From positions 28,768,001-28,832,000 of the forward strand of contig CM060733.1 in NCBI GenBank assembly GCA_030704615.1: DNA of 64,000 bases. Reading direction: 5' to 3'. Below are positions 23,944 to 64,000 of the stretch, piece after piece. The notes under the pieces were generated by a model that worked only from the letters and a program-made list of their open reading frames with translations, made no database searches and was not told the origin of the DNA. Positions within the stretch are counted from its first letter, which is position 1. Every line of letters begins with the position of its first letter. Both the position numbers and the translations under genes were made by a program. The DNA is from Takakia lepidozioides (lineage: Eukaryota > Plantae > Bryophyta).

Positions 23944-24630
23944 TGTCGTGCGCATACATATCGCTACACAATTACATCGCTGTCCAAAACCACACAACAC
24001 ATGTGCACCACACACTAGTATACCACTAGTCCAACCACCAGTCCAACCACTAGGCTACAACTAGTCAGTCACTAGGCTGCCACTATGCTGCCCACTATGG
24101 CAGTCACTAGTCCACACAATGGATAAAGAAGAAGAATACAAGCACGAGCTCACGAATCTGAAGCATAAACTCATGCATATATAACCTCATCACTCAAATA
24201 CAAGTCAAGCCAAGTGCACCCCACGCCATCGGGAATCCACACTACGGCGCCATAGCTAGGCGCGGTGAGGCTCAACTCGAGAAAGATGAGCCTTCCGCGC
24301 TTGCCGTGAAGATAACCACTCCAGGGCCTAAATCTGCCTTGACCCCCTGGATTGACACTTGGGCCAATCCCAAATGTCAATATGTAAAAGCTAGTTATTT
24401 CCTAGCTAGTTTCACACTAGTGGTAAAATAACTTGACAGCTGTCGTGCGCATACATATCGCTACACAACTACATCGCTATCCAAAACCACACAACACATG
24501 TGCACACCACACACTAGTATACCACTAGTCCAGCCATTAGTCCAACCACTAGGCTACAACTAGTCAGTCACTAGGCTGCCACTATGCTGCCCACTATGGC
24601 AGTCACTAGTCCATACAATCGCCCCCCTAG
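23944..24630 (-). repeat. A-B-gc-A terminal repeat block plus polypurine tract
   Basis: The A segment is duplicated at 23944-24120 and 24441-24619. The B/A junction reads ttgaca-gc-tgtcgt. On the minus strand the PPT ctaggggggcg (24620-24630) directly precedes at-TGT. Confidence 0.9.
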
Positions 24631-24869
24631 CTGGTGCTTAGGTCCCTCTAAGTCCAGGTAGCCACAAGATGTGATAGTGACCATAGCCTCACTAAGTCCT
24701 CCACCACTATCCCTACTACACTCAAACTCGATAGATCAAGAGGCCGGGTGCAAGAGTTGCCCCATCGTTAGTCGTCGTCTTGCAACCTGTGAACTTGAGC
24801 TTGGGATCTCATGTATTGACTCCTATGAGCTTGGCCTCCCATGTCTTGTTAGCTGCCTCCAGTCATGTC

Positions 24870-27800
24870 CACTGCCACTATCCCAAGCAGTGTGGACACA
24901 ACCAATCTCCGTCAGGAACCTTCTCAAGAGGTGGTGTCAAGCATCACATATGCCAACCCCTTGAGCATCGATCACACACCAGCATGGTGGCTGCCCCTTT
25001 GGCAGACCACAGAGCATGCACCTCAAACCTGCAGGTACCACTGCCAAGTTTGGGTCAACTCTGCCATCGACATTGGGAAGGTGACATGACGCACAATTAC
25101 GCACATGGTCCTTCCAAGTCATGCCATCCCGACCCTCTAAGATCAGGACCCTCGAGGGCAACACCTCTCGAACCCTCAGAATAACACGCCCTGCAGTAAC
25201 ATCCAGAGTCGTAGGAGCAGTCTGCTGCAAATAAACATAGTCACCAGGGCTAAACCTTCGAACCCCAGGACGATATCCTCCACCACGTATAGTGGCATAT
25301 CTCAACGTATCACGGTGTTGTGCAATGGCAAGGTTCTCAAAAGCCATGGGCATGACTTTCTTGAACAACCCTGCACGCTGATCACATGCACGTACCCACA
25401 CGTCCGGATCGTCAAGGTTAAGGACTTGAGCAGTGTCCCTACGAATGGCTGCAGGCAAATCCGGCTCTCAGCCAAAGAGAAGGAAATATGGTGAGAAGGA
25501 GGCAAGTGATGCTTGTTTGCTGAACCTGTAGCCCATGGCTAACCAATGAACCTGAATATCCCAATCTCCTAGGTGTCCCTTCTGCAAGCCATACTTGCGC
25601 AAACCTCTATTTACCGTTTGAACAACTCTCTCTGCTAAGCCATCGGCCTCAGGATGATTCCGAGAAGTGGTGCGGTGGTCTATCAAGGATTTATCACACA
25701 AAGCCTGAAACTCCCCCAAGAACTCTCTCCCTTGGTCCGTGAGTACCTCAGCTGGAGCACCAAATCGGCTAAGCACACGATCCAAGAATGCATACGCAGC
25801 CCCCTCACTAGCCTTATCAGGCAATGGAACCATTTCAATCCACTTGGAGAAGTGCTCCACCATCATCAACACATATCTGTGGTGGCGCATAGTCAGTGGC
25901 AACGGTCCTGCGAAGTCAAGACTCCACCTGTAGCCCAATCCCATGATTGGTAAAAGATGCAACTGTGGTGTAGGGGCGTTGAATGAAGCACGCACCCTGT
26001 CACACACCATGCACCTAGCCACGAACTATTGCACCTCTGTATGCATACCACGCCACCAATACTGCCCCTGCAGTAAACTGTGAGTGCGTCGCACTCCAAA
26101 ATGCCCCAACTCCTCATGGGCATGCCGCACTAACCGTGCACGCTGTGTGGGGTGAGGCACAATCCTCACCCGACCATCCTCCCACACTCGAAGTAGGTGT
26201 ATCCCCTCCCACTTGAACCTCTTGGCTCGTTGCAGGATCCGATCCCTCTCCCTGGCAGTCACAGTGGCTGTCGTGTCTCCCGTGCGGAGGTAGTCCAACA
26301 CAGCCGAATCCTCATGTATATCTCTGGCACCACCTGGCTCATCACTAGCCTCAGGGTCCTCAGACACTCCGTCTACAGTCATCCCTGTTGTAGGTCCAAC
26401 CTGACTTCCCGATGCCAAGATACACAAAAATGCAGATGCGTGCCATCCCGGCACCATCTCCTCGTCCGTCTCACCATGCCACCGAGCTCCAGTGTCATCT
26501 TGCTGGCTCATGCATGGATTGCGACTCAATCCATCCGCATCCCGATTGACCAAACCTGGTCGATGCACAACCTGAAAGTCATACTCCTGGAGTATGAGTG
26601 CCCACCGTGCAAGCTTCCCCGTAAGCTTGTCTGACTCCATCAACCACTTGAGTGGCTGGTGATCCCGTGACAAGGGTGAAAAGATTGCCGTATAGATAGC
26701 ACCTAAAGTGTGCCACGGCCCACACTGCAGCTAAGCACTCTCCCTCATATGAGCTGTACTTAGCCTCTGCAACATTGTTCGAGCGGCTAGCATAAGCCAC
26801 TACGAACTCTCTTCCCTCATCATCCACCTGTGTGAGCACCGCTCCAAGCCCCAGCATGCTCCAATCCGTATGCAGCTGAAAGGGACGCCCCCTGATAGGT
26901 CGTCTCAGGATAGGCGCCGAGGTCAACCTCGCCTTGAGCTCTTGAAAAGCTCGTTCCTGCTCATCTTCCCACTGCCACTCCTGGTCCACCTTGGTCAGCT
27001 TGGTTAGAGCCTTTGTAATGGTACTAAATCCCTTGACAAACCGTCTATAATAGTTTGCCAACCCCATGAAAGCTCGAACTCGGCTCACATCCGTGGGGCG
27101 TGGAATTTGTGCAATGGCCTCTACCTTAGTTTGTTGTACCCCCAATCATCCAGGATATATCATGTGACCCAGATACTCAATCTGGTTGTGGAAAAACTTG
27201 CACTTCCCCGGATGCAACTTCAATCCGTGTGCTCTCAAGCGCTCCAATACCACCTGAAGGTGTCTCTCATGCTCCTCCATCGTAACACTAAAGATGATGA
27301 TGTCATCTATGTAGCACCGAGCAAAGTCCACCCCTGCTAGAATCCTATCCATGACTCTCTGAAACTCTGCATGAGCATTCTTAAGCCCAAATGGTAAGAA
27401 CCGCCACTTATATAGGCAATCCTTGCCGTGCTCATTGATCCCCCAGAATGTCGTCTTCTGCTTGTCCGCCTCCTTGATTGGCAACTGGTGATATCCGGAT
27501 CGTAAATCCAAAGTGATAAAGGCCTTAGCATGCCCGATGGCATCAAAGATCTCCTCTGGTGTTGGCATGGCATACTTATCGGACTTGGTCTGACGATTTA
27601 CAGGCCGGTAATCACCGCACATACGTCTCTCCGTCCAATTGCCATAGACATCTTTCTTGGCTGGCATCACTGTGGCTGAAGCATACTCTCCACCAGAGAG
27701 CTCCACCAAACCTGCCTCCCAGAGATCTTGAGTTCTCATCTGAATCAAAGACCTCTCCATGTCACTGTATCTATAGGGTCTCCGAAAGATTGGCGTGTCA

Positions 27801-27880
27801 GTGGCCAACTCAATACAGATCTCTTGACCCTTCAGTGCTCCCAAGTCCTTCAAACTGAAGGCAAAGCAATTCATGTAAGC
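24870..27880 (-). pseudogene. pol RT - RNase H - integrase - PHD finger of family 1 (stops and frameshifts)
   Basis: [75 protein letters not shown], and a C-terminal CMLC...C..C...H..C...WLCPHC. Confidence 0.92.
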
Positions 27881-28012
27881 CCTCAGGAACCGCCGTATAC
27901 GTCGTCTCTCTCCTCCGGTGACAATGGGTCCAATGTCAGGCTCCCAATTATCCTCCGTAACTGCAACCTTAAGTCCAGTGGGCTTAGAGGTAGAGGACGC
28001 GTCCAGTGGTTG

Positions 28013-29470
28013 CTATGTTGCAACCTCTTGAGCAGTACTCCCTGCCTGCTCAGTCAATGACAAGGCCTCATCCTGCCCCATCATCTCATCCTTGAGGACC
28101 TCCTCAACCCGAGAAGAATCCCCAACCTCATCCATCACAGCCGCCTTGGCTGCCAACTCCCTCTGAACCTCGAGCACCTCCCACGTGTGCCATGGATGCA
28201 TGCACCTCGTGGTCCTCACATGCTCGCCCCCACTCACTGCCTGTACCGTCTCGGTAGGCAGAGAGACCATCGAGGGAAGTGTACTCCGCACTCTGCGTTG
28301 CTTAGCCAGAGCCAAGCTGATAATCCAGGTTAAGCAATTGAGATCCATTGCTTGCCCCAACACTTGACGACGTGATGCCTCAGAAAGAGACAACACCACC
28401 GTGGTACCAGTGGTAAAACCCATTGCCCGCTCACGCTCGTCAGCATTAGGCTCCACTAACTGCTGCAACTGAGCATCCCACAGGAGGCCAGGTCCACTAT
28501 CCCGGAAAGCATGCGATCCTGGGAAGCTGAGCAGTGTAGGTAATGCTGCTCGTGGTTGACCCACCTTGTTGACCACTGCCAAAGGCGAACGGTCATCGTG
28601 TCTCACACGCTGAGACTGCCTCCCTGTGTCCAGAATGTTATCCACTGTGAGATGTGCTGGCCGCTGCTCCCCATCAAATGCACGCTTGAGCAGTGCGGGT
28701 GGCATCAAGTTAGTCCACCATAGCCGTGGACGATGAGCCCGTGACCCCACTGTAGCTGCATCTAGCAACACTGCTGACCCAAGCCACGACTGGACTTGAT
28801 GCACACTGGCCATCACCCTGGCCCGAGAATCGCCCATCAGTGGCACATTCTCCAAGATGTATGCTGGAGATACAGCTTGATGAAGCTGCAAGTGACGCGA
28901 AACCCGCACCATCTCCCAAAACAGACCCGACCTCGAGTCTCGTAATCCATTGCCATGCCCGGCTGATGAATGCCCTTGGCAGGGCCAACCTGCCACTACC
29001 AGATCAATGGAGCCAACTCGCTCCAAATCCTGCGCCCCCAGTAACGAAATGTCTGCTGGCAAGGCCTGCTGATATCCACAAATTGCAGACACCGACAACA
29101 ACTCAGGGTACCGCTGAGCAACATGGCGAAGTGAAACGCGTCGTGCAGTCTCATCCCTCTCCACATACATGTAACGCCGAACTCGTACACCTGCCTGTAA
29201 CACAGCAGCCAATCCGGTGCTTATCCCACCAAACAAGTCCAGAAGACAAATGCCTTCATCCGGATACTGCCACACAATAGGTGTGGTGTCCAATGGAGAC
29301 AACTGAGGTGGTCCTGGTGCAATCCCCGCACTCTCCTCCTCTCCTGACGGTACAAAAGCCTCCACCCAGGCTTGTTGCATCCGTCGATCAGCATCCCGCT
29401 GCAAATCCTTGCTCGTGCCCCACAATGGAGTCTGAGCAACCATGGTAGGCAACTCCGCCATACCATACAT
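28013..29470 (-). CDS. Retrotransposon-encoded DNA (cytosine-5) methyltransferase, DNMT3-like
   Basis: Ordered C5-MTase motifs: I LDLFGGISTG, II YVERD, IV DLVVAGWPCQGHS, VI YILENV, VIII AHRPRLWWTNL, IX ERERAMGF, X RRQVLGQAMD. The frame is open across the whole domain. Confidence 0.92.
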   Translation of the reverse strand: MYGMAELPTMVAQTPLWGTSKDLQRDADRRMQQAWVEAFVPSGEEESAGIAPGPPQLSPLDTTPIVWQYPDEGICLLDLFGGISTGLAAVLQAGVRVRRYMYVERDETARRVSLRHVAQRYPELLSVSAICGYQQALPADISLLGAQDLERVGSIDLVVAGWPCQGHSSAGHGNGLRDSRSGLFWEMVRVSRHLQLHQAVSPAYILENVPLMGDSRARVMASVHQVQSWLGSAVLLDAATVGSRAHRPRLWWTNLMPPALLKRAFDGEQRPAHLTVDNILDTGRQSQRVRHDDRSPLAVVNKVGQPRAALPTLLSFPGSHAFRDSGPGLLWDAQLQQLVEPNADERERAMGFTTGTTVVLSLSEASRRQVLGQAMDLNCLTWIISLALAKQRRVRSTLPSMVSLPTETVQAVSGGEHVRTTRCMHPWHTWEVLEVQRELAAKAAVMDEVGDSSRVEEVLKDEMMGQDEALSLTEQAGSTAQEVAT

Positions 29471-29476
29471 GTCATC

Positions 29477-30465
29477 CTACTCTCCCGGAGGTGGTACATC
29501 CTTTGAATGAGCGTTTCCCTCGAGCAACTCTCTAGGCCAACTCACTGCCGTTGTGAATGCTGCTAGTGTCGGCATCTTGCCTCGCTGGGCAACCGCAACT
29601 CCTCCTATGAACGTCACAGGAAGCTGCACACGCCGGCCCTCCCCTGACTGCCATGTAGGCCTATAGGAACCTGACTCCTCCCAAAAATCCAGGGTGAAGC
29701 CCATGGGGTACAACATTGCCCCACCAACCAGGACATCGTATGAGACCACGTCTGTCACAATGGCCTTGGCTCGCATCACTGAGCCATCTGTAGGGATCCG
29801 GCCGTAGTCTGATAGCCAACTCACGCCGTGTCATGCCCCGAGCTTGCTCCGATCCTCCCAGAGACGTCTGTATCTGGAAAGGACAAGGCTCCATATCCGC
29901 CTCCGTGAGGCCCAAGCCTGCAATAGCAGCTCTGCCCAGCATCAGTGGCTGAGCTCTCGAGTCCAACAAGACCCGCAGTGGCCGGTACCTCTTGCCTGCC
30001 GGTCCACTCAAACAGAAAATGCTATCCTGGTTGTCTAACATGACAACTCCAGGTGTCACCATGGCGCGCTCAATGGCTGGCTTAGCTGGCAGCTCCATCA
30101 ACCTGGCAGCTGCAGCTTGCCATGGCACCGCCGTGGCAGTCTTGACCCTCAAATCCGAGGATCCCTCCGGCACTACACCTCCCAGTATCTCCGCAGAAGA
30201 TGAAGTAACCTCCCGACTCTCACAGAGTGTAGCTGCCAGCCTGAACACCTCAGCTGGTCTTACCCCCGGCGTCGCAATTATGGTAGCCGAGAACAATGGA
30301 GCCTGGCACACAGATGTGGCCGCTCCTAGCAGAAAGGCGTAAATAGTTGTGGATTGCGCATTTGCTGCAAATCACACCAACTATCAAACTCTTGGATAAA
30401 ATCATCCAACTCGATGGTGCCCACCACCCCAGAGTACCTTCGTGGCCCCTTGGTAGCTCCATACA
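29477..30465 (-). pseudogene. Aspartic protease plus short gag N-terminal remnant of family 1
   Basis: LRVLLDSRAQPLMLG (DSG>DSR) and YDVLVGGAML. A capsid-like start, RYSGVVGTIELDDFIQEFDSWCDLQQ, lies at ~30340-30440 and then jumps to the pre-PR linker. Confidence 0.7.
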
Positions 30466-31329
30466 TCTCCTCCATTGTGTCCCACAACAATGACAAAGAA
30501 CAACTTGCACCGCCGGTATGAGTCCTCCTGATTCACAATCCGAATCAGAACCTTCCGTAGAAGACACAGGAGGTGAAGGTGGCCTAAACCGTACACCTTG
30601 TCTCGTGTACCCACTAGTATCGCTAGTGCTTGAACCGGCACTGTCCCCAGCGACTAATGGCACCTCTGTGTTGACACTCAACCGGTCATGAACATGTCCT
30701 TAACCCCTTCTCCACAAGGTAACCGGGTAGAGAACCTGTTGCGGCTTATGGTTTGGAATACTAAGTTCTTAACATAGCCTACACCTGTACCTGCATCCAC
30801 CGCAAGCACTCCTATGGTTGGCTGGTCATCACCTCCAACCTCACCACAGGAGAAACAATGATGGTCTGGCTAGTCATCACCCCAGCATCGACAACATGCT
30901 CTAGGACTGGCCGGTGATCAAATCCAGACCAATCACCTATAAAAACAAGCGCCCACACAAAACTAGCATGGCGCACAGTCAAGCATGCAGGTATGGAGGG
31001 GATCCAAACACAAGAAATCAGAACGACAACTCCCCCACACCAAAAACAACTCCACGGTGTTGCTCCTGCAAGGACACCCCAGCCCAAACCCGAACTGACT
31101 CTTGCCTCCACCTGCGGAAAGGTCTTGGCCTAATGAGAGGGTGGAAACTACAAGGAAGAGAAGCTAAAGCAATGCCTAACCCCAGCATGCCCTCATCCCA
31201 ACACTCTTCCTCTCCTCTATTCCCTCACTTGCATGACCATGGGAATATCATGAAGATACTCCTCAAACCGCCCTCCACGAGCTTCAAAATTCGGCCTTCA
31301 AGACCACATGCCAGTCCTTAGGCAGTCCA

Positions 31330-31790
31330 CCAGTGCCTCCACGAGTCAGCACAGGCCGTCCACAGGTCAACACGAGCCACCAGACCAGCACAGGCCCACA
31401 CAGCTCACTGGTCACAGCCATCACAGTCCCACAGGCCACTGGGCACAGCCCGTCACAGCCCGTCACAGCCCCACAGGCCACAGGGCATAGCCCGCCACAG
31501 CCTGTCACAGCCCCGCACAGCCCGTCACAGCTCGCCACAGCCTGTCACAGCCCCGCACAGCCCGTCACAGCCCCACAGGCCACTGGGCACAGCCTGTCAC
31601 AGCCCCTCACAGCCCGTCACAGCTCGCCACAGCCCCTCACAGCCCCAAAGGCCTCAGGCACGGCCTGACATAGCCCCTCACAGCCCGTCACAGCCCCAAA
31701 GGCCTCAGGCACGGCTTGTCACAGCCCCGCACAGCCCGTCACAGCCCCAAAAGGCCACCGGCACAGCCCGTCACAGCCCCATCCATGGCC
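31330..31790. repeat. Short-unit (~10-11 bp) degenerate tandem repeat in the retroelement leader
   Basis: Many copies of (gt)cacagccc / cacaggcc. Confidence 0.85.
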
Positions 31791-33315
31791 GCTCTGGCAG
31801 TTTAGCCATTTCTCCAAGGGGTTTAGCCACGCCAAGCTAGGGTTTGTATCTCTTGGACTCTAGGCTTCTTTCCACCGAGCTATGGCGGCTGTGAGGAAAT
31901 CAGCAAGGTATTCTTGCTCTTTCGGCTCCCACACACCACCATAATAGCCCTAAGCCATGAGGTGGTTGCCACAAACCAAGCCTTCTTTCTCACTTAGCCT
32001 CCCCAAACACGCCACTAAACTCAATGGCAAACAACCAAGCCCTGCTGGTTCCCAGCCCTTGTGATCACTCATTCAAGCACTCTCATTGGCCATAGCATCT
32101 ATCTTAGAGCCTATTCCAACCCCCTACACCTGCTGCTTCAAGAGTTGCGCTCCCTTCAAGCTTGAAGTTGAAACCCCAACTCACATAGGCCCTACAAGTG
32201 CTTTTCTTTCACTCCAAGTGGAAACCAGCCCTAGACCTTCCATTCTAGCTCTCTAAAGCTTGAAAACAAGAGCCTCAATGGCCTGAAGGCATGCTCCACA
32301 CATGCCCCACTCTCACCATAAGAGAATCAGCTCCTTTGCTTCATTTCTTGCACCCACAAACCTGAAAATACAAGCTTCAGCAGGCTGAAAGCATGCTCCA
32401 CATGCCCTACAGGGAAACCAGCCCCTTCCTTCCTTTCTTGCACTCCCACACCTGAAAGTGCAAGCCTTCACCAGGCTGATAGCATGCTCCACACATGCAT
32501 TGCCCTCACATAAGGGAAGTCAGCCCTTCCCTCTTCCTTGCTTGCCCTCCAAGCTTGAAGATGGAAGCTTCAATGAGCTGAATACATGCTCCACACATGC
32601 AACCTCTTCACACAAGAGATATCAGCCCCCTATCTTGGCTCCTTGGCTCCTTGATGCTCTCTAAGACAAGACTAAGCACTCCACAGCCTTTGCCAAGCTC
32701 CTGAAACCCTAAGGCTTACATTTCCAGCCACAAGACACTTCTCTTGTGGTGCAAGAGCTCTTCTTCCAAGCTCTGAAACCCTAGGTGCACATTCCATGGC
32801 CTTGCCGCACCTCTTAGCTCCTGTTCCAGCCCTGCTCTTGCCATGACAAGAGCCCTCTCAATGCTAAAGCTCGAGATTGAAACCCAATCTCACCATACTC
32901 CACAAAGTGCACTGATTTGCCCCAAGCCAAATCAGCCCTTTTGCTTGGTCTTGCAATCCTTCACACAATGAAAGCTCGCATTCCCAAGTCCAGTTCTCAG
33001 CTTTGCCACCAAAGCCACTATAACCTGCTCTTGACTGGTCCTCTTCCCAATCGTGCTTGCTCATGCATGTACACAATCTGAAACCATCAAGGTGCTCTGG
33101 AATTACCTGCAGCATGGTGTTTTCATCTCTGAAGCTGAAGATCGAATGCCAAGGTCTACCACCTCGTAACCCACATCGCCTCCGCTTCTAACAACCAAGA
33201 GCTCCACGGTGCTCCTTGCATAACAACTTGGTTTCTCTCATTCTCAAGCAAAAACCACAAGTGCTACAACTAACTCGCATCTGACACTCACAGATACGAG
33301 CTGATCTTTCTCGAG

Positions 33316-33632
33316 TGATAAAGAAGAAGAATACAAGCACGAGCTCACAAATCTGAAGCATAAACTCATGCATATATAACCTCATCACTCAAATATAAGT
33401 CAAGCCAAGTGCACCCCACGCCATGGGGAATCCACACTACGGCGCCATAGCTAGGCGCGGTGAGGCTCAACTCGAGAAAGATGAGCCTTCCGCGCTTGCC
33501 GTGAAGATAACCACTCCAGGGCCTAAATCTGCCTTGACTCCTGGATTGACACTTGGGCCAATCCCAAATGTCAATATGTAAAAGCTAGCTATTTCCTAGC
33601 TAGTTTCACACTAGTGATAAAATAACTTGACA
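33316..33632 (-). repeat. 5' half-LTR (segment B only) of family 1
   Basis: About 6-7 differences from 24122-24438. No A segment lies beyond it; it ends ...aacttgaca followed by the TSD. Confidence 0.92.
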
Positions 33633-34290: not shown

Positions 34291-35686
34291 TCTTTGAATT
34301 TATTATTAAAAATTGTCGACATTGATGTTATCAAAGCGAAACAATATCAGACCTTCTCAGATTCTGTGATAAAATTCACGGCACAAGAAGGAATATCCTG
34401 GTTTTATTGATGATCTAAATGACAGATGTACATGTTAACTTTGTTGTTAAAGGAAATTTCAGTAAGCAAAAGTATCATCATTTGTTATTATGTCTACATT
34501 GTCCTGTGAATCATTTCAATCAATATCGCTATATTTTCTGCTTACTGTGTGTTTGGTGTTATTTTCGGACAAGGGAACAAATACATTTTCCGAGTTCTAT
34601 TTAGCATCACATTTCAATAACATTAGAATTGTATTTTGTATCAACTGCAACTATTTTGTTTTCGTTGCATGAAATTATTGCGATATTTTTTCTTTTAAGG
34701 CTCTCTTTTCTCAATGCGAAACCCACCGCTGCTTAGATTTGTGCCCATATCACCAAGTATTTCTCAATGCGAAATTCGCCGCCATCGCTATAGGTTTAGG
34801 GTTTCTGGCTACACTATTGAAGGTTTCGCCTCACTGGATTGGTGCAGATGTACCATATAAATGCACCAGTCCTCTATATCCACTTATGATTTTATTCCAT
34901 TATGAAAACATATAACTCCTATGACCGAGGTTAAAAAATCATAAAACTCCCATGACCGTGGGTTGTGCTAACGCGCGCGTGAGCATGCTCACCGCTGTGC
35001 TCACGCGATACCAACCCCCGTATAGAACACTATTTTAACTAATTCTGGACTTTTGTTTGGTCCAGAAATAATACAAGATATATGAATAATTATAATCTAT
35101 AATAGAAATAAAGAGATATATCTATAATTATTTGACTATTTGTGCACTATATAACAACAAATTATGTAATCCTCCACACATTCTACGCAAAAATACAAGT
35201 ATGTATTGTGGTCTTAGATGAACATCCACTGCCAAGTTAGCCCCAATGCCGCCTAGGGTCAGGGTGCGGACCCTACCTGCGGTAGACCCATCCTCGTGGC
35301 AAACCCACCGGGGCCCGGTCATGGAGGTCATGGATCGCAGCGGGGCCACCTAGGGGCGTCCGACGTCCGTGCATGGGCATGCTACCTGGCTCACACGTGA
35401 GCCTTAAACTCCCAATTATTCAACAATGAGAAGCATCTCCCCCCCTATTTCATTAACTATCACCAACCTGGGCCCACCTCTTCACATGCCCTCGTTCTCC
35501 TCACTCCACAATCCTTGCCCGCCCCTCCCACACCACTAAACCACCTATGCAGGGCTTTTGGCGGGCCTCCTAGAGCCATAACCCGCCTATAGAGGTCTTG
35601 GGATAGGCCTAGGGAGAACCAAACACACCTAGGCAAGTCTTGGGCCGGATAAGACGCACGGATGGGCCCGGCGGTCAGGGTTGGAC

Positions 35687-53328: not shown

Positions 53329-56300
53329 TGTCGTGCACCTAAGCATCGTGCCACAACATACATCGTTGTCCATCACACAATCTAAGCACACAATCCTAGA
53401 AAGCTATACCACAATGATAATGAAAGTGAACATAATGGAAACCCTCCACTCATGAATCCACTCAATCACATAAAGTAAGTCAAGCCAATGGCACCCTTGC
53501 TAAGGGAATCCACCCTACAAAGCACTCACCACACTCCCTCTCAATACCTAGAGCTATGGAGGTGAGAGAGGCTCATGGAGGCTCAACTACAAGAAGATGG
53601 GCCTCCTCCATCCTCACAAGGGATATAAATATCTAAAATGTCCTAGTTAACTAGAAGTAGGTAATTCTAGATAGCCATGACAGCTGTCATGCACCTAAGC
53701 ATCGTGCCACAACATACAAGCACACAATCCTAGAAAGCTATACCACAATCGCCCCCCTAGCTGGTGATTAGGTCCCTCTAACACCGGATAGCTGACAAAT
53801 ATCCATCCCAATAAGATCATCGCGTGGTCATCAATCGCCCATTGGCAAACTACTATCGATGGCGTGTCAAGGGATTTAACAGCATTGCAAAGGCTCTTAC
53901 CAAGTTGACCAAGGTGGGTCAAGAGTGGCAGTGGGAGGAAGAGCAAGAGGAAGCATTTGAGGAACTCAAGGCTCGATTGACTTCTGCACCTATTCTGAGG
54001 CGGCCTTTCCAGCTACATACAGATTGGAGTATTCTGGGGATTGGAGCAATGCTCACACAGGTGGATGATGAGGGAAGAGAGTTCATAGTGGCATATGCTA
54101 GCCGCTCGAACAATGATGCCGAGGCGAAGTATAGTTCCTATGAAGGGGAGTGTCTGGCTGCAGTATGGACAGTGGCACATTTTAGATGCTACCTCTATGG
54201 CAATCTCTTCACTCTTGTCACGGATCACCAACCATTGAAGTGGTTGATGGAGTCAGACAAGCTTACAGGGAAGCTTGCACAGTGGGCACTTATGCTTCAA
54301 GAGTACGACTTCTAGGTGGTACATCGAGCCGGAATAGTCAACCGGGATGCGGATGGATTGAGTCGCAATCCATGCACAAGTGAGCTTGATGATACAGGAG
54401 CTCGTTGGCATGGTGAGACGGACAAGGAGATGGTGCCAGAATGACACACATCTGTCTTTTTATGCATTCTAGCAATGGGAGCTCAAGCTGGTCCATCCCA
54501 TGTGATTGGTCATAGAGATAGTGTGCATGACGATCCAGAGATCAGTGAGGAGTTTGGTGGTGCTAAGGATGTACATGAAGATGCAGCAATGTTGGCCTAC
54601 CTTCGTACTGGAGAGACAGCAGCCAGTGTGACTGCTAAGGAGAGAGATCGGATCCTACAACGAGCCAAAAGGTTTAAGTGGGAGGGGACTCACCTACTCC
54701 GAGTATGGGAGGATGGACGAGTGAGGATTGTGCCTCATCCAACACAGCGAGCGCGATTGGTACGCCATGCCCATGAGGAGTTGGGACATTTTGGGGTGCG
54801 ACGCACTCATAGCTTGCTGCAATGACAGTATTGGTGGCGGGGCATGCACACGGATGTGCAACAGTTAGTGGCAAGGTGCATGGTGTGTGATAGAGTGCGG
54901 GCTTTTTTCAATGCACCTACTCCACAATTGCATCATTTCCCCATTATGGGTTTGGGCTATCGTTGGAGTCTTGACTTTGCAGGCCCATTGCCACTGACGA
55001 TTCGCCATAACAATTATGTGCTGGTGATGGTGGAACATTTCTCCAAATGGATTGAACTAGTGGCATTGCCTGATAAGGCAAGTGAGGGGGCTGCGTATGC
55101 ATTCTTAGATCGAGTGCTTAGCCAATTTGGTGCTCCAGCCGAGATACTCACGGACCAGGGGAGAGAGTTCTTGGGGGAATTTCAGACTTTGTGTAAGCAA
55201 GCCTTGATAGATCACCGCACTACTTCTCGGGATCATCCCGAGGCTGATGGCTTGGCGGAGAGAGTTGTTCAGACAGTCAAGAGAGGTTTGCGCAAGTACG
55301 GTTTGCAGAAGGGACACCTAGGAGATTGGGACCTTCAGCTGCCTTGGCTAGCTATGGGCTATAGGTTCAGCAAACAAGCTTCGCTTGCCTCTTTCTCACC
55401 TTACTTTCTTCTCTTCAGCCGAGAGCCAGATTTGCCTGCATCTATTTGCAGGGAGACTGCAGTAGTCCTCAACCTTGATGATCCGGATGTGTGGACACAA
55501 GCATGTGCCCAACGGACAGAGTTGTTCAAGAGAGTCATGCCTATGGCTTTTGAGAACCTTGTTATTGCCCAACACCGAGACACATTGAGGTATGTCACTA
55601 TACGTGGAGGGAGGTATCGGCCAAGTGTTCGGCGTTTCCATCCTGGGGACTATGTGTATCTGCAGCAGACATCGCCTACGACATTGGATGTCACAGCAGG
55701 TCGTGTGATTCTAAGGGTCCGGGAGGTGTTGCCTTCAAGAGTGTTGATTCTGGAGGGTCGAGATGGCATGGTATGGAAGGACCATGTGCGCAATTGTGTG
55801 CCATGTCACCTTCCACATGTGGATGGGATGATAGATCCCAACCTTGCAGTGGTACCTGCAGGGTTGCATTGCATGCTATGTGGGCATGCTGGTGGTGTCG
55901 CGACCATGTTGGTGTGTGACAAATGCTCAAGGGGGTGGCACATGGAATGCTTGACACCGCCACTTGAGGAGGTTCCTAGTGGAGAATGGTTGTGTCCACG
56001 ATGCCTTGGATAGAGGTAGTGGGGCATGACAGTGGTGAGGTTGACAAGTGATCCAAGGTCTAGCTAACGGGAGTTCAATGCCATGGACACCCAATTGAAG
56101 CCATGAAAGCACGAACTCTGCTCACATCTATGGGGCGTGGATTGCATGCAATGGCCTCCACCTTTGTCTATTGAACACCCAATCCTCCAGGGTATATCAT
56201 GTGGCCCAGATACTCAATCTGATTGTGGAAGAACTTGCACTTTCCAGCGTGCAGTTTCAACCCGTGCGTTCTCAAGCGCTCAAACACCATCTGAAGGTGT

Positions 56301-57494
56301 CTCTCGTGCTCCTCAATCGTAGCACTAAAGATGATGATGTCATCAAAGTAGCACCGGGCGAAGTCTAGCCCCGCAAGAATCCTATCCATGACCCTTTGAA
56401 ACTCTACAGGAGCATTCTTCAACCCAAACGGTAAGAACCGCCATAGGTACAAACCATCCTTCCCATGTTGGTCAATCCTCCAGAATGTCGTCTTTTGCTT
56501 GTCAGCCTCTTTGATTGGCAACTGGTGGTAACCGGATCGCAAATCCAATGTGTTAAACACCTTTGCATGCCCAATGGCATCAAATATCTCCTCTGGAGTT
56601 GGCATGGCATATCTATCGGACTTAGTCTGACGGTTCACAGGACGATAGTCCCCACACATCCTTCTTTCTATCCAATTGCCATAGATATTCTTCTTAGCTG
56701 GCATCACCGTTGCCGAGGCATACTCCCCGCCTGACAACTCCACCAATCCAGCTTCGAACAACTCCATAGTCCGTGACTGGATCAATGACCTCTCCATGTC
56801 ACTATACCGGTAGGGCCTTCGAAAGATTGGCGTGTCACTTGTCAAATCAATACGAATCTCTTGACCCTTCAAACTCCCCAAATCCTTCAATCCGAAGGCA
56901 AAACAATTTCTATAAGCCCTTAGAAATCGCCGAATCCTCCGTCTATCTCCTCCGGTGACTGTAGGTCCAACATCTGGTTCTCAATTGTCCTCAGTGACTG
57001 CAACCTTGGGTACACCAGGCTTGGAGGTAAGAGACGCATCCTTTGGTTGCTAGATAACAACCTCTTGGGCCTTGTCCGCCCATCCTGACTGTGGCATAGC
57101 CTCCACTTGCTCCGCCATAGCCACCTTGAGAACATCCTCTGAACAAGAAACATTCTCAACCTCTTCAAAAACCTTAGCCACCTTGTCCTCCAATTGATCC
57201 TCAATGTATGGCTCTCCCCACTCCTCCTACTGCTGCTTGAGGGATCCAATGACTCTCTCTTTGCGCATCTCATCCCACATCTGCCATGGGAGTTTTCACC
57301 CGTATGATCATGTGCTCGCCTCCACTCACTGCCTCCACCGTCCCGGTTGACAGAGAGGGTGCAATATCCAATAGGAGTGCGGAAGTAGCCTGCTTGCAAT
57401 CTCCGTTGCTCAGCCATACACAAGCCAATGACCCATGTCAAGCAATTGGGATCCATTGTCTGACCCAACACCTAGCGTCGTGATGCCTCTGACA
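53329..57494 (-). mobile_element. Second DNMT/PHD gypsy family (family 2): permuted LTR block, internally inverted pol, truncated
   Basis: A 53329-53415, B 53416-53682, gc, A 53685-53749, then the PPT complement cgcccccctag. RNase H-IN-PHD is on + (~53840-56100) and RT is on - (56100-56900). DNMT motif X remnant SEASRR*VLGQTMDPNCL at ~57400-57494. Confidence 0.9.
54844..56013 (+). CDS. Integrase core with C-terminal PHD finger (family 2, inverted segment)
   Basis: DDE core, then CMLCGHAGGVATMLVCDKCSRGWHMECLTPPLEEVPSGEWLCPRC, a canonical C4HC3 PHD finger. Confidence 0.92.
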   Translation: MHTDVQQLVARCMVCDRVRAFFNAPTPQLHHFPIMGLGYRWSLDFAGPLPLTIRHNNYVLVMVEHFSKWIELVALPDKASEGAAYAFLDRVLSQFGAPAEILTDQGREFLGEFQTLCKQALIDHRTTSRDHPEADGLAERVVQTVKRGLRKYGLQKGHLGDWDLQLPWLAMGYRFSKQASLASFSPYFLLFSREPDLPASICRETAVVLNLDDPDVWTQACAQRTELFKRVMPMAFENLVIAQHRDTLRYVTIRGGRYRPSVRRFHPGDYVYLQQTSPTTLDVTAGRVILRVREVLPSRVLILEGRDGMVWKDHVRNCVPCHLPHVDGMIDPNLAVVPAGLHCMLCGHAGGVATMLVCDKCSRGWHMECLTPPLEEVPSGEWLCPRCLG

Positions 57495-60400
57495 CACTTC
57501 GGTAAGCTCCCCTTCAAGTCATAGTTACTTGCTTGATGTGCGCGCCTAACTCCCAAACTAGCCACCGGGCCAACTCGGAGCTTCGGCTACTCACCGGGGC
57601 ATAACGGTCCCCCTTTACTCCTCCACTAGACCCTCTCCCAATTTGAGCCTAGTGGAAATTCCCTTTGGTCGAAGGCAGTCCGGAATAGCTCCCCACACCT
57701 TGGTCGCTTTCCGGCTCGCACGCTTACTCACTAGTTTTTGGACACCAACGGGCTTGCACCGTTCTCGGGGTTACTACTCCCTATATATACTTTTGTGACT
57801 GTCCGCGGGGGTTTCACAAACAACACCACCATTTTATGGCGAACCACCACGAAAACCCTCGATTCCCGGTGATGAGTCGCGGTGAGTCTTGGCCCACCCA
57901 CCACGGTCCCCTTGGACCATGATGAGTCCCAAGACTCCCCACGACTCCCACCACAAGGTCTCCGCCCCCATGGTGAGTCCTATGCCACCCCCACTAAGTC
58001 CCACTAAGCTACCACCACCCCTTGTGGAGCCACCCCCACCGCAACCCGGTGTGCGGGGCTCCACCTAGTGAGTGCCTCCGCCTCCTCGAGTGCTTTGGGC
58101 ACTTGAGGTTGCTTCAGCCCCCTGTACCTATTGCTGCCACCGCCCCCACCACAAGGGCAGCCCCTCTCCGACCCGACCCCCTGCCCTCAAGGCAAAGGGC
58201 CGCGACACACACCCCTACCAACAGGGAGTTGATGTCCTTATCGACTTGTCCATTTTGTAGAAATGAACATCCAAGTTGTGGCGTCCCACATCAAGGAGTT
58301 TGTTTCTACACCATGGCATCCCATGACTAAGAACCAAACCCCCACTTGACTCTTCTCTCCACTAGCTAGTTCGGCCGACTTCATCCAAGTCCCAGCCAAG
58401 GGTGGAGCCTCTCAAGCTCCTCCCAATGCACTCTTCTTGACCCACTTCAGGGCCAAGGATCGATCCTCCCCGAGGATTGAATCGCCTTACTGCAACAACA
58501 TTTGCTTGCGACCGCTCGTGATGTCATTTTTGGCATCACCTTGAGCAAGGGTTCACCTTGAACCCTTTTTGACTAGGAAGATAACCTTGAACCAACCGTG
58601 CGCCTCAATCACTACAAATTGGGTCCGCTTTGGAATGCTGGCATGAGGTACGGGAACACGCTGAAGCCGCACTACGACTTCGTCCCAAGGCTACACGATT
58701 ATAGTACGTGAACGGAAGCATGTAGCTTCCGCGTTAGCCCGCACTACAAGGCAACCCCCTCGGTAGCGCAGTTATAGTACGCGCACGCGCCAGGTGCGCA
58801 CTAGCACGTGAACTCCCAACGAAGGTGCAAGTTTCATTGCCCCTTGGGTGGGAGTCACCCGATTTCGGCACTACACAAACACACGATTAATCCAATTTAC
58901 CTCTCCCACTTTGTAAGCTTAGCATGCATTCTACACACTAGCCAACCATACCATGCATCACCATTCCAAACAAAATAGGAAGCACAAGATTTGGAAACCA
59001 TTTCTTTTATAACAAAATTTGTACAATACAAGTTTTTGCAATTGGATTCCTGAGCTAGCTAAGCCGGGCTAAGCATGCATTTCCTCCCCCATGCTCTAAG
59101 GTTGATGTCCCCATCAACGCTTCTTCCGCTTTTGAGGTCGCCCTTCGAAAGCTGCAACCGCCTTGGATGCGTTTCCCATTTCTGAGGCACACACCCAAGA
59201 TGCCTCCACATGATGATAGCCCTTCCATTTCACGAGATACTCCGTTTCTCAATTCTTGAACCTCCTCGACTTAAGCACTGCCTCCACCTCGTACTCAGGT
59301 TCATTTTCATGATCCAACAGCACAGGTGGCGGACGCAACACTTGAGGCCGATTCGGACGCGCTTCATCTTTGAAGTAAGGCTTCAAAAGGGAGACATGGA
59401 ATATCGGATGCACCTTGCTGTTTGCCGGCAGCTCCAATTCATACACATCCTCATTCATAATCTTCCGGATGCGAAAGGGTCCCGCATATGGAGGTACGAA
59501 CTTCAGACTCACTTCTAGAGGTAGTCGAAATTTTTTGATGTTCAACCAGACCTCCGTGCCTGCCTCAAACTTAACCTCCCTCCGCTTCCGATTCGCCTAC
59601 CGTTCATACCGTTTCCTAGCTTTGGCAATGTTGAGCTTCAACAAACGCCCGTGTTCTTCCAACACTGCCGCTGCTGCCGGTTCCTCAACGTCTTGAGCGG
59701 CCCAACTTGTCGGCACCAGAGGTGCTTTTCCATAGACCAATACGAAAGGGGAAACTCCTGTTGCGGAATGTTTTGTGTTATTATAACATAACTTTGCCGC
59801 ATCCAAGTGCTCCACCCAGTCCGATTGGTCTGCCGGCACGTAATTCCGCAAAATCTGCTTCACCACGGAATTCACTTCACCGGGTTGGAGCCAATATAGT
59901 GGCGCCAAAGCTCAAGGCAATGCACCACTTCCTTCATTTCTTTCTCGTGCGTTGGCCACCGCCGCTCCACTTCATTCAGTTTCTTATTATCGTAAGCCAC
60001 TGGACGTCCCTCCTGCATGAGTACACCGCCAATCGCGAAGTCCGACGCATCCGTATGAATCTCAAATGGGCGGTCGAACTCCGGGATTTTCAGGACTGGA
60101 ACTTCTGCCATCCACTGCTTCAACTCGGTAAAAGCTTGGCCACAAAAGGTGTTCCATACCCAGACTTTGGATTTACACAGGAGGTCTGACAGCGGCCCCG
60201 CGATCTTGGCGAAATTTCTCACATACTTTCGGTAATAGGAGGCGAGTCGATCCTCCTGGGATCGAAGTCGGAGGCTCCCAGTCCAAGATTGCTCTCACCT
60301 TTCTGTCATCCATTTTGATATCATCCTGTGTAATCACATGCCCCAAGAACTCCACTTTTGTGACCCCGAATTCGCACTTTGAAGCTTTGGCATACAGCTT

Positions 60401-62748
60401 CCCTTCCCGTAATTTCTGGAACACCTTTTTGAGATGCTCCAAGTGCTCTTCCTTTGTTTTTGAGTACACCAAGATGTCGTCGATGTACACGATCACAAAG
60501 TCGTCCAACCACTCCTGGAAAAGGCTGTTCATTAGCGTGCTAAAGGTTGCGGGTGCGTTGGTGAGCCCAAAGGGCATCACCAAAAACTCATAAGAACCAT
60601 ACCTTGTCCTGCACGTAGTCTTTTCCTCATCTCCTTCCGCCACTCGAATTTGATGATATCCGGAGCGCAAATCGATCCGGCTGAAATACTTCGCTCCTAC
60701 CAACCGATCGAAGAGGTCATCGATCCTTGGCAAAGGGTATCGGTTTTTGATAGTCACCTTATTGAGAGTTCTGTAATCGACACACATCCGCAGCGTCCCA
60801 TCCTTCTTGTCTGCGAATAGCACCGGGGCTAAGGTGACTTACTCGGCCGGATGTACCCCTTTGACATTATAGCCTTGAGCTGAGTCTTCAGCTCGACCAA
60901 CTCTCTGTGGCTCAACCGGTAGGGTGCCTTGGCAGGCGGCTCCGATCCCGGTATCACCTCAATTTTGTGGTCAACTCCTCTTGGTAAATCCTCCGGCATC
61001 ACATCCTGATAATTCTCCAAAATCCCCTTGATCCAATCTGGGCTCAGCTCCCCATCGCCTTTTTCCTTCACTTGTCTTACGTAAAGCAAAAACTGGGGCT
61101 CGTGTGGCTCCTCCACGGCCCACTCCCTTGCTTACAAAAGGTTTATTCGCCCTCCCACGGGGTTGGGCGTTTCCGACATTCGTAAAACTTCGCCACCATT
61201 TCCACACGGTAGCGTGACTACTCTTTTGCCATCTATGACCGCTCCGGATCTGCTCAAAAAGGTCATCCCCAAAATGAGATCCACTCCATCGATCTCACAA
61301 ATGGTGAAGTTCTCACGTCCCTCCCAACTCCCGAACTGAAGAGGAACATCGAACGCCAACCTCGTCGCCAATTGTGGTTCTCCTTTAGCAGAACGCACCT
61401 CAATCGAGGCCCCCACATCACTTGTCGGGAGTCCCAGCTTCCGTGCCGTTGCCGGTGTCATGAAGGAGTGCGACGCTCATGTGTCCACCAACAACAATAC
61501 GTTAGTTCCGGAGATTATCCCACTCACAAACATTAACTGACTCCCTTTACGCAATGCGCCAGTTTCTTGATACAACTCACAAGAGTAGTTGCCTACCTTG
61601 CAAGTCTTGGCGACCACCGCCTCTACCAAGTGGCTGATGGAGGCTTCGGATAACTTAGTGGTTGCCCGAGTCATGTTCAATTGTCGAGGATTCATACACT
61701 TCTTGGCCATGTGCCCGGGCTCCCCGCAATTAAAGCACATTCCATCGAAGATCGCCTTCTGTCCGCCATAAGCCGCCGCACCTGGTTTCCCTTTCGAGGC
61801 ACCGGGTGTCGTCTTGACGTGTGAGGGCCATCCCTTCAATTTCCATGTGCCATTGTTGCCGCGTGGCCTATCCCACTTCTTTTCCGGTCGGAAGGAGTCA
61901 CCTTCCCGCCGGACCTTCTTGTGGTTCAGCTCCGTACGGCCTTGTCTTTCGCCCCTAGGGACATCCGAGAAACATTCAGCCCTTTCAATTGCCTCGTTCA
62001 AAGTCTTAGGTGGCTTCTCCTCCAACTTCCGTCTGGCCCATGGGGCCAGTCCCGCCACAAAGTTGAAGACCATTTCTGGTTCTGCCATGTCCACGACTTC
62101 GAGCAACAGCACATTGAAAGCCTGGACATATCCCCGAATGTCATCCGTTTGCTTCAAATTCCTCATCTTGTCTCGAGTGAGCCAGGACGCGTTGAGGGGC
62201 ACAAACTGTCTCTTCATGAGTTCCTTGAACCCACTCCAGTTTAAGGTCTCCAGGTTTGGACCTCGGTCGTGAAGGCGTTTCTACCACCATTGTTGAGCAT
62301 AGCCCCTCAAATAGGTGGGAGCCACTTCCACCTGATCCTCGTCATCCAACTTGGCCGCCCGGAAGTATTGCTCTAGCTCCAAGAGCCAGGTGTTGAGTGC
62401 CTTCCGATTTTGGACGCACTCAAAGGTGTCGGGTTCCTTAGGCTTCACCTTAAACTTTGCCTTAGTGGAAGTGGCATTAGTGGTCTTTAACACGTCTTCC
62501 AACGTCCCACCAAACTGCGCCAACAACCCTTCCCAAAAGGTTGCTGGCATGGGAGGTATCTGTTGGTTTGTCGGAGCTCTCAGGGATTCCTCGGGCTCCG
62601 ACTCCTCAGATTCCTCCTGTCCTTGAGCGGCCTCGCTTCCAAAGGCATGCATCGCTTCCTCAAATGGCTGCTTCGGTGACACGTCGCCCCCATCGGGCTC
62701 ACCAGGATCATCATCTTTCGGGCCGTTCTGCTTTCGCTTTGGCTTGCC

Positions 62749-63289
62749 TGTCGTGCGCATACATATCGCTACACAACTACATCGCTGTCCAAAACCACAC
62801 AACACATGTGCACACCACACACTAGTATACCACTAGTCCACCACTAGTCCAGCCACTAGTCCAACCACTAGGCTACAACAAGTCAGTCACTAGGCTGCCA
62901 TTATGCTGCCCACTATGGCAGTCACTAGTCCACACAATAGTTGTAGCACTTGTGGTTTCGAGTGATAAAGAAGAAGAATACAAGCACAAGCTCATGCGAG
63001 CTCACAAAGCTGAAGCATAAACTCATGCATATATAACCTCATCACTCAAATACAAGTCAAGCCAAGTGCACCCCACGCCATGGGGAATCCACACTACGGC
63101 GCCATAGCTAGGCGCGGTGAGGCTCAACTCGAGAAAGATGAGCCTTCCGCGCTTGCCGTGAAGATAACAACTCCAGGGCCTAAATCTGCCTTGACCCCTG
63201 GATTGACACTTGGGCCAATCCCAAATGTCAATATGTAAAAGCTAGCTATTTCCTAGCTAGTTTCACACTAGTGGTAAAATAACTTGACA
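62749..63289 (-). mobile_element. Solo permuted LTR (A-B) of family 1, inserted in the chromovirus gag
   Basis: Matches 23944-24438. TSD TGCC at 62745-62748 and 63290-63293. Removing it restores the gag start MGSGKPKRKQNG from the ATG at 63302. Confidence 0.93.
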
Positions 63290-63343
63290 TGCCCGACCCC
63301 ATGATGAGGCCGATCCCAAGGACTATCGCGTACTAAACTCTAA

Positions 63344-63355
63344 GCTCTGATACCA
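63344..63355 (-). promoter_or_regulatory. Primer-binding site complementary to initiator tRNA-Met
   Basis: Minus strand reads TGGTATCAGAGC, 2 nt from the LTR end. Confidence 0.92.
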
Positions 63356-64000
63356 AGTGTCGTGCACCTCACTTCGGTAAGCTCCCCTTCAAGTCATAGT
63401 TACTCGCTTGATGCGCGCGCCTAACTCCCAAACTGGCCACCGGGCCAACTCGGAGCTTCGGCTACTCACCGGGGCATAACGGTCCCCCTTTACTCCTCCA
63501 CTAGACCCTCTCCCAATTTGAGCCTAGTGGAAATTCCCTTTGGTCGAAGGCAGTCCGGAATAGCTCCCCACACCTTGGTCGCTTTCCGGCTCGCACGCTT
63601 ACTCACTAGTTTTTGGACACCAACGGGCTTGCACCGTTCTCGGGGTTACTACTCCCTATATATACTTTTGTGACTGTCCGCGGGGGTTTCACAAACAACA
63701 CCACCATTTTATGGCGAACCACCACGAAAACCCTCGATTCCCGGTGATGAGTCGCGGTGAGTCTTGGCCCACCCACCACGGTCCCCTTGGACCGTGATGA
63801 GTCCCAAGACTCCCCACGACTCCCACCACAAGGTCTCCGCCCCCATGGTGAGTCCTATGCCACCCCCATTAAGTCCCAATAAGCTACCACCACCCTTTGT
63901 GGAGCCACCCCCACCGCAACCCGGTGTGCGGGGCTCCACCTAGTGAGTGCCTCCGCCTCCTCGAGTGCTTGGGCACTCGAGGTTGCTTCAGCCCCCCATA

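What the first reader, a model, noticed from the sequence alone, without database searches (positions are those of the whole stretch)
62939..62962. Solo-LTR junction contains an inverted 20-nt copy of the leader: possible fossil of a self-primer
Seen: the A/B junction of the solo copy is acaat-AGTTGTAGCACTTGTGGTTT-CGAG-tgataaag. The 20-mer is the exact reverse complement of 33252-33271, immediately next to the hairpin, and CGAG is the leader sequence abutting B (33312-33315). The equivalent junctions are acaat-g-gataaag (24121) and acaat-gataatg (53415), so all three differ. Inference: the junction is remade in each cycle by end-joining. Here a sense-strand leader fragment is fused to the start of minus-strand DNA, as expected if a cleaved, folded-back piece of the element's own RNA primed reverse transcription and was copied before circularisation.
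Basis: partly seen in the sequence, partly recalled or inferred. Interest (0 to 1): 0.8.

Follow-up and report, generated by a model that had tools for sequence, protein, structure and literature searches.

The report
Junction scar points to true self-primer
A 20-base backwards piece at the seam of a plant jumping gene's end repeat is likely a one-off copying scar and not the primer, but the five bases beside it, and a segment that stays complementary to the priming site across diverged relatives, indicate that the element likely primes its own copying with the start of its RNA, as the yeast element Tf1 does.

Summary
Observation confirmed: 62939-62958 is the exact reverse complement of leader 33252-33271, followed by CGAG(T); the window's three junctions differ. 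The element is a Ty3/gypsy (DNA methylase, RT, RNase H, DDE integrase) with split repeats and 4-bp target duplications.

The 20-mer is not the family's primer. It pairs at 4 of 12 positions with the priming site and does not recur (0 of 13 independent sister-family junctions; no long insert listed among contigs laid on the junction). The likely primer lies inside repeat B (33470-33487): 127 of 132 positions pair in 11 selected 5' ends from four sequence groups, with compensatory changes, in a Tf1-like fold. The usual junction is a plain join that starts right after this primer's predicted end, so CGAGT is likely the primer remnant and the 20-mer a templated filler (RT jump or Pol theta). A relative (L066/L068) folds back exactly at the primer and ends at the internal integrase site.

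Self-priming is known; the split layout was drawn once in print. This scan noted the layout in this genome and self-priming in another. New variant; interest 0.45.

The parts
62749..63289 (-). Solo copy of the split repeat (sense order B', junction, A'), TG...CA ends, inserted in another LTR retrotransposon between its PBS and gag
   Evidence: target duplication TGCC at 62745-62748 and 63290-63293; empty site listed in 4 of 4 runs (table 5)
62939..62958 (+). 20-nt filler, exact inverted copy of leader 33252-33271, 1-nt microhomology on each side
62959..62963 (+). CGAGT: 5 nt beyond the usual B end, identical to the 3' end of the predicted self-primer and to the start of the PBS; likely primer remnant
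   Evidence: inferred
62749..62938 (-). Repeat A of the solo; its junction side begins at the base that follows the polypurine tract in the full element
62964..63289 (-). Repeat B of the solo, with its own copy of the predicted primer segment at 63127-63144
23944..33632 (-). Full element 1: B' (33632-33317), PBS, leader, broken gag-pol with DNA methylase, RT, RNase H, integrase, PPT, A' (24619-24441), GC, B' (24438-24122), junction (24121), A' (24120-23944); target duplication AATC
33470..33487 (-). Predicted self-primer: segment of repeat B complementary to the PBS (13 perfect pairs, 15 of 16)
33299..33316 (-). Primer-binding site directly after repeat B; no tRNA-type TGG start
33272..33302 (-). 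Leader hairpin whose 3' base abuts the donor of the filler
33252..33271 (-). Donor of the filler, in the 5' leader 45-64 nt after repeat B
24431..24448 (.). Internal palindrome GACA-GC-TGTC between A and B; its halves are the ends of integrated copies
   Evidence: same site in relatives
24620..24634 (-). Polypurine tract immediately before A'
53329..53750 (-). 3' end of a second, diverged element with the same A-B-A layout; plain junction near 53415; predicted primer segment near 53584-53603 about 28 nt after a TATA-like motif; its 5' end is not in the window

Best explanation
The 25 extra bases at this junction are likely a scar left when the two ends of one DNA copy were joined: 5 bases likely copied from an incompletely removed self-primer, and a 20-base filler likely copied once from the element's own leader RNA. 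Steps: (1, inferred) the RNA starts inside repeat B near 33487; its first 13-17 bases pair with the site right after B and are cut off to prime minus-strand DNA, as in Tf1. (2, inferred) Plus-strand DNA starts after the polypurine tract at ATTGT, so the copy runs A'-GC-B' ... A'-GC-B'. (3, shown in sequence) The B' end is joined to the A' start, usually with nothing or one base between. (4, inferred) In the parent of this solo the plus strand ran 5-6 bases into the primer, jumped on 1 base of homology to a leader RNA fragment, copied 20 bases until it met the leader hairpin, and was then joined. (5, ends shown, enzyme inferred) Integrase opens the joined molecule at the internal GACA-GC-TGTC palindrome and makes a 4-bp target duplication, so the seam is kept in the chromosome. 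(6, inferred) The solo arose by B-to-B recombination or by direct insertion. I put the core (primer is in repeat B; the 20-mer is a one-off filler at a cDNA join) at about 0.85, and the full account with an RT jump at 0.5.
For: Primer: 13 perfect pairs in element 1, 0 of 500 shuffles reach it; predicted 5' RNA folds into primer:PBS duplex plus two stems, z -6.2, 0 of 200 shuffles. In 11 selected 5' ends from four sequence groups 127 of 132 positions pair, against 43-67 of 132 when slid by 1-3 bases; each group's primer fits its own PBS best (11-12 of 12 against 2-10 of 12); L037 and L081 differ by paired changes. A TATA motif lies 26-29 nt before the 16-mer in 4 of the 11. Contigs of the family show a PBS variant that removes element 1's single mismatch (loose ends). 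Primer end: the duplex includes the A of the final CA in 11 of 11, and the usual junction lacks that base or shares it. Fold-back: in L066/L068 the B' end continues as an inverted copy of B' that starts at the primer's 3' end (176-178 nt, 94%) and stops at the palindrome half-site. Rarity: 0 of 13 independent sister-family junctions carry inverted leader (10 plain, 1 with +G, 1 with a 17-nt filler partly copied from U5 in direct orientation, 1 fold-back); on the 24121 junction only 'no base' (23 contigs of X1, 2 of X6) and 'A' (25 contigs of X1) are listed as variants; depth over the insert is about a tenth of its flanks in X1. RT jump: orientation fits a plus strand copying sense RNA; the donor ends at the hairpin base; it lies over 500 nt from the nearer cDNA end; Tf1 RT switches onto RNA templates on 2-nt homology in vitro (PMC3035444, passages). 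HIV 2-LTR junctions carry PBS, PPT and internal 41-nt inserts (PMC5618025, Table 1 legend).
Against: One insert only, so its route cannot be fixed. Homology at the jump is 1 nt (A:U), below the 2 nt with a G or C that PMC3035444 requires. No RNA data: the start site and the cut are predicted. In the unselected test only 6 of 14 5' ends had a perfect run of 10 or more; L018 has the segment deleted in its 5' repeat, and L007, L022, L062 and L078 were left out; 7 of the 11 ends belong to one family and the L048 anchor was chosen from the complement itself. Element 1 has no clear TATA motif before the primer. PBS and primer complement are the same letters here, so CGAGT could be read-through into the PBS. 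Contigs drop rare variants and tables were cut (8 loose-end rows hidden, 230), so the insert rate in this genome is not measured. The 13 junctions come from a sister family in other organisms.
Confidence: 0.5

Rival explanations
1. Same self-priming and same join, but the host's polymerase theta made the filler from the leader DNA while joining the two cDNA ends.
For: Templated fillers are the hallmark of Pol theta joining in plants and can come from flanks or other molecules (PMC10923293, passages). Plant LTR-LTR junctions carry small indels ascribed to end-joining (PMC9324142, passages). The L018/L024 filler holds an 11-nt direct copy from about 30 nt upstream, the usual Pol theta pattern.
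Against: The donor is over 500 nt from the nearer end of the finished copy; no bases are lost on the A side; the donor ends at a hairpin base, which suits a single-stranded template.
Confidence: 0.3
2. One reading: a cleaved piece of the leader next to the hairpin is the family's regular primer for reverse transcription.
For: The junction reads sense-leader 20-mer followed directly by minus-strand sequence, as a kept primer would; the donor abuts a hairpin.
Against: 4 of 12 positions pair with the site it would have to prime; -7.5 kcal/mol against -24.4; not recurrent; the motif is absent from all 80 loci then held; a far better, covarying primer exists.
Confidence: 0.03
3. The solo is a chromosomal deletion derivative: repair after a break joined the 5' repeat plus 5 nt of PBS to the terminal A', with filler from the deleted leader.
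For: CGAGT and the donor both lie next to the 5' repeat, at the edge of what would be deleted.
Against: The A-side breakpoint is exactly the base after the polypurine tract, the same as in every ordinary junction; a random deletion would rarely stop there.
Confidence: 0.1
4. The filler was captured from the end of another LTR family's DNA copy.
For: An 18-of-20 copy lies at 48441-48460, ending an LTR-like stretch just before a TGG motif; 0 of 200 shuffled windows give such a hit.
Against: The element's own leader matches 21 of 21.
Confidence: 0.04

Closest known systems
Tf1/Tf2 of Schizosaccharomyces pombe, Tj1, and predicted self-primed plant lineages Tcn1 and TAR (PMC4600332, PMC5341516, PMC6317226; passages read)
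   Same: PBS directly after the repeat, complementary to a segment of the element's own repeat at the predicted RNA start; no tRNA site; predicted multi-stem fold around the duplex.
   Different: Ends are permuted and integrated copies stop at an internal palindrome; integrase ends in a PHD finger and pol carries a DNA methylase; duplex predicted 12-17 bp; start site and cut not shown here.
KnitGypsy-Dnmt3 of Klebsormidium nitens (PMC5890265; passages including the Fig. 4 legend, figure and supplements not seen)
   Same: Gypsy pol with a cytosine methylase; legend states DIRS-like repeat structure with Gypsy domains.
   Different: The passages I saw give no priming mechanism, junction analysis or integration route (term 'primer' occurs once, for PCR). 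Relationship not tested by a tree.
2-LTR circle junctions of HIV-1 (PMC5618025; passages and Table 1 legend) and plant LTR-LTR junctions (PMC9324142; passages)
   Same: U5 end joined to the PPT-side end, with kept PBS or PPT bases and inserts of internal sequence.
   Different: There the junction sits in unintegrated circles; here it is carried into the chromosome in every full copy.
Polymerase theta templated insertions ('fillers') in plants (PMC10923293; passages)
   Same: Short insert copied from nearby sequence between two joined ends.
   Different: Donor is far from the predicted ends and bounded by a hairpin; no loss on one side.
DIRS-order elements with split direct repeats (SymbioDIRS in PMC5890265; PAT/Ngaro recalled)
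   Same: A-internal-B-A-B repeat order.
   Different: No tyrosine recombinase found; DDE integrase and 4-bp target duplications.

Membership tests
Tf1-type self-priming (works like) | At least 10 nt starting 0-5 nt after the 5' repeat are complementary to a segment of that repeat (criterion of PMC6317226) | tested here: met
   13 nt in element 1; 6 of 14 unselected 5' ends reach 10 perfect; 127 of 132 positions pair in 11 selected ends
Tf1-type self-priming (works like) | No tRNA-complementary PBS | tested here: met
   Sequence after repeat B starts CTCG, not TGG, and differs between groups; not compared with a tRNA set
Tf1-type self-priming (works like) | Primer segment is the 5' end of the transcript | tested here: inconclusive
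   TATA motif 26-29 nt upstream in 4 of 11 ends; no RNA data
Tf1-type self-priming (works like) | Supporting stems beside the primer duplex (recalled from the Tf1 literature; only titles seen) | tested here: met
   Predicted in element 1 and L037; less regular in six sister-family folds
Tf1-type self-priming (works like) | RNase H cuts the primer from the transcript | not testable with these tools
   Needs biochemistry; junctions only suggest the cut site
Tf1/sushi-Tcn1 chromovirus clade (membership) | Chromodomain at the integrase C-terminus | tested here: not met
   PHD finger, no chromodomain hit, in the 395-aa integrase of element 2
Tf1/sushi-Tcn1 chromovirus clade (membership) | RT-RH-IN phylogeny within the clade | not tested
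   No tree built
KnitGypsy-Dnmt3 / streptophyte Gypsy-DNMT3 | Cytosine methylase inside a Gypsy pol | tested here: met
   PF00145 before RVT_1, RT_RNaseH and rve; DNMT3 subclass not tested
KnitGypsy-Dnmt3 / streptophyte Gypsy-DNMT3 | DIRS-like split repeats | tested here: met
KnitGypsy-Dnmt3 / streptophyte Gypsy-DNMT3 | Phylogenetic grouping with the Klebsormidium elements | not tested
   Klebsormidium sequences not fetched
DIRS order (tyrosine-recombinase retrotransposons) | Tyrosine recombinase instead of DDE integrase | tested here: not met
   rve integrase; no recombinase hit in the 17 frames scanned, 8 of them from the two elements
Canonical Ty3/gypsy integration | Integrated ends are the ends next to PPT and PBS | tested here: not met
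   Target duplications flank the halves of the internal palindrome; the PBS-side end of L048 is not CA
2-LTR circle junction | PBS-side end joined to PPT-side end, with variable remnants | tested here: met
2-LTR circle junction | Free circular DNA exists | not testable with these tools
   Only integrated copies and contigs seen; head-to-tail dimers would give the same junction

The most novel reading that the evidence does not exclude
The solo never was a full element. Plus-strand strong-stop DNA (one whole repeat plus 5 primer bases) was made double-stranded with the 20-nt leader RNA fragment as an accidental primer, closed into a one-repeat mini-circle and inserted directly through its internal palindrome. 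Solos of this family would then be integrated copying intermediates, integrase would need only two internal half-sites whatever joins them (as the L066 fold-back suggests), and every copy would be a readable record of raw reverse-transcription ends.
Probability: 0.15. Interest if true: 0.7.

Novelty: new variant of a known kind. Interest (0 to 1): 0.45.

Why it matters
The insert alone is a known kind of joining scar. Its value is what it marks. Ordinary LTR elements lose the record of their raw DNA ends when they integrate; this lineage keeps the seam between them in each chromosomal copy. The seams map the likely primer end to the base, show primer and PPT remnants, and include a fold-back whose end was cut at the internal palindrome. 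That makes an old question testable from genomes alone: whether end-joined DNA copies, usually treated as dead ends, can be the normal substrate of a DDE integrase. It also extends predicted Tf1-type self-priming to a PHD- and methylase-bearing plant lineage for which my searches found no such report.

Tried and rejected
Scans of viral contigs found nothing. The two lays gave contigs only, with cut tables; the solo's own junction was not shown as a bridged record. Element 2's predicted PBS is not in the window: the pattern hits only the primer segment itself. The insert motif is absent from the 80 loci then held. The 20-mer's best partners elsewhere in element 1 (about -20 kcal/mol, bulged, inside pol) were judged chance. 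The shuffle control for L037 used a stretch that was too long (7,428 nt); it is conservative and still gave 0 of 500. Five junctions of more distant groups (L001, L048, L070, L074, L082) show no long insert that I could recognise but were left out of the 13 because their B ends could not be fixed exactly. A tyrosine-recombinase element was rejected. The paper on non-removal of the Tf1 primer is not held; I saw its title only. Look-ups of earlier findings by sequence, by nearby place and by junction words were empty. Supplements of PMC5890265 and PMC6317226 were not read and may bear on the claim that priming in this lineage is undescribed.

Full report
Observation. The 20 bases at 62939-62958 are the exact reverse complement of 33252-33271; with the shared T the match is 21 of 21. 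Chance in the window is about 1e-7. They are followed by CGAGT, which matches 33312-33316. The donor abuts the 3' base of a hairpin at 33272-33302.

Context. The window is from a land plant (COBRA-like gene; lineage not determined). Element 1 (23944-33632, minus strand, target duplication AATC) encodes a broken pol with DNA methylase, RT, RNase H and a DDE integrase; a second copy's integrase ends in a PHD finger. In sense order it reads B', leader, pol, polypurine tract, A', GC, B', junction, A'. The solo (62749-63289, duplication TGCC) is B', junction, A'; the empty site is listed in 4 of 4 runs laid. A' starts right after the polypurine tract and B' ends right before the leader, so the repeat that reverse transcription would make is A'-GC-B', and the junction joins its two outer ends. 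Integrated copies end at the halves of the internal palindrome GACA-GC-TGTC. The same layout recurs in relatives. PMC5890265 notes DIRS-like repeats in a Klebsormidium Gypsy with a methylase (Fig. 4 legend). Earlier notes of this scan describe the layout in this genome and self-priming in another; I had written the same reading before opening them.

Is the 20-mer the primer? A primer must pair with the RNA just after repeat B. Placed as in the junction, the 20-mer pairs at 4 of 12 positions, with a best duplex of -7.5 kcal/mol. A segment inside repeat B (33470-33487) pairs with that site over 13 perfect bases (0 of 500 shuffles; -24.4 kcal/mol). An RNA starting there folds into the duplex plus two stems, z -6.2. 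Loose ends of family contigs show a site without element 1's one mismatch. This is the Tf1 arrangement, in which a 5' segment of the mRNA is the primer (PMC4600332, PMC5341516, passages), and it meets the criterion used in PMC6317226.

Covariation. Of 80 related loci (the best 80 of 221) plus 2 more, several keep a 5' end. In an unselected test 6 of 14 ends had a perfect run of 10 or more bases; the others had 0-8, L018 because the segment is deleted. In an anchored test on 11 ends from four sequence groups, leaving out L007, L018, L022, L062 and L078, 127 of 132 positions pair against 43-67 when slid, the primer sequence differs between groups, each fits its own site best, and L037 and L081 differ by paired changes. 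Seven of the 11 are one family and the L048 anchor was chosen from the complement, so the independent evidence is four groups. A TATA motif lies 26-29 nt upstream in 4 of 11; element 1 lacks a clear one.

Junction spectrum. On the 24121 junction, 659 records of run X1 and 16 of X6 were laid; the listed variants are no base (23 and 2 contigs) and A (25 contigs of X1); no longer insert or joint is listed. Contigs are not copies and drop rare forms. Over the solo's insert the summed depth in X1 is 58,323 against 534,882 and 702,340 in the neighbouring bins. In a sister family 22 loci carry the junction; by host flank they are 13 insertions: 10 plain joins (some with later point changes, seen between copies of one insertion), 1 with an extra G from the polypurine tract side (L008), 1 with a 17-nt filler holding an 11-nt direct copy from the repeat and CG from the tract side (L018 = L024), and 1 fold-back (L066 = L068). 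None has inverted leader.

What the primer fossil is. In 11 of 11 anchored ends the duplex includes the A of the final CA, so the primer likely ends in U and minus-strand DNA likely starts at GATAAAG. The usual junction, ACAAT-GATAAAG, is then a blunt join, with an optional extra purine (a 1-nt homology join would read the same). In the solo, CGAGT is exactly the predicted primer's last five bases. The clearest case is L066/L068: after B' the sequence continues as an inverted copy of B' that begins at the primer's 3' end, runs 176-178 nt at 94% identity and stops at the palindrome half-site, where host DNA begins. The divergence of the arms argues against a library artefact. This fits a kept primer copy snapping back on its source, and a cut at an internal site with no join to A'. 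Its 5' end is missing, so no target duplication could be checked. Similar fold-backs were noted by this scan in other genomes.

How the filler arose. Kept PBS, PPT and internal viral pieces (41 nt of nef between unprocessed ends) occur at HIV 2-LTR junctions (PMC5618025). Two routes fit. An RT jump from the plus-strand end onto a leader RNA fragment gives this orientation, explains the stop at the hairpin base and needs no nearness in the finished DNA; Tf1 RT does such jumps in vitro, though on 2-nt homology (PMC3035444), and here there is 1 nt. Host Pol theta makes templated fillers in plants (PMC10923293) and suits the L018 filler. I favour the jump (0.5 against 0.3). A chromosomal deletion is unlikely because the A-side breakpoint is the exact base after the polypurine tract. 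One insert cannot decide, and accidental priming by the fragment in this one molecule gives the same letters.

Unexplained. A 19-of-20 copy of the donor region lies at 48439-48458, at the end of an LTR-like stretch of another element.

Verdict. Interest 0.45.

Noticed in passing
L066:3361-3878 and L068:1412-1929 (same insertion): Element end folded back at the predicted primer: B' is followed by an inverted 176-178 nt copy of itself that ends at the palindrome half-site. Suggests integrase cuts any internal half-site, with no circle needed.
   Followed up: partly
window 47984-48464: LTR-like stretch (TGTAG...CTACA, then AA and TGG) whose last bases match the filler's donor region at 19 of 20 (48439-48458 against 33250-33269); 0 of 200 shuffles. 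Unexplained.
   Followed up: partly
window 28013-28015; L037:5083-5085; L038:4661-4663: A single in-frame stop splits pol in element 1 (between methylase and RT) and splits two long open frames in L037 and L038; may be a conserved read-through stop.
   Followed up: no
L006:1830-1865; L037:8827-8854; L081:7228-7255; window 33463-33487: The primer segment can also pair with bases just upstream or around it in the repeat, so RNAs that start too early could hide the primer in a hairpin.
   Followed up: no
L037 (9317 nt) and L081 (9285 nt): Contigs with A'-B' contiguous between PPT and PBS; L037 has open frames, L081 has a 127-nt end overlap. Collapsed repeats or one-repeat circles. L081 and L082 sit in a record titled as a cyanobacterial assembly, likely stray eukaryotic contigs.
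   Followed up: partly
window 53329-57492: Second element of the lineage with an internal inversion (53842-56022), nested in another Gypsy and interrupted by an LTR element.
   Followed up: partly
window 57495-64000: LTR retrotransposon with 98.6% identical LTRs and a TGG-type PBS near 63345; the solo sits between its PBS and gag.
   Followed up: partly
window 23018-23943 and 33633-34400: Element 1 is inserted in an array of about 117-bp tandem repeats.
   Followed up: no
window 31400-31820 and 32220-32630: 10-bp tandem repeats and three diverged copies of about 100 bp in the long leader of element 1.
   Followed up: no
window 647-815, 6300-6506, 8034-9028: Dispersed repeats in direct and inverted orientation; not examined.
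   Followed up: no
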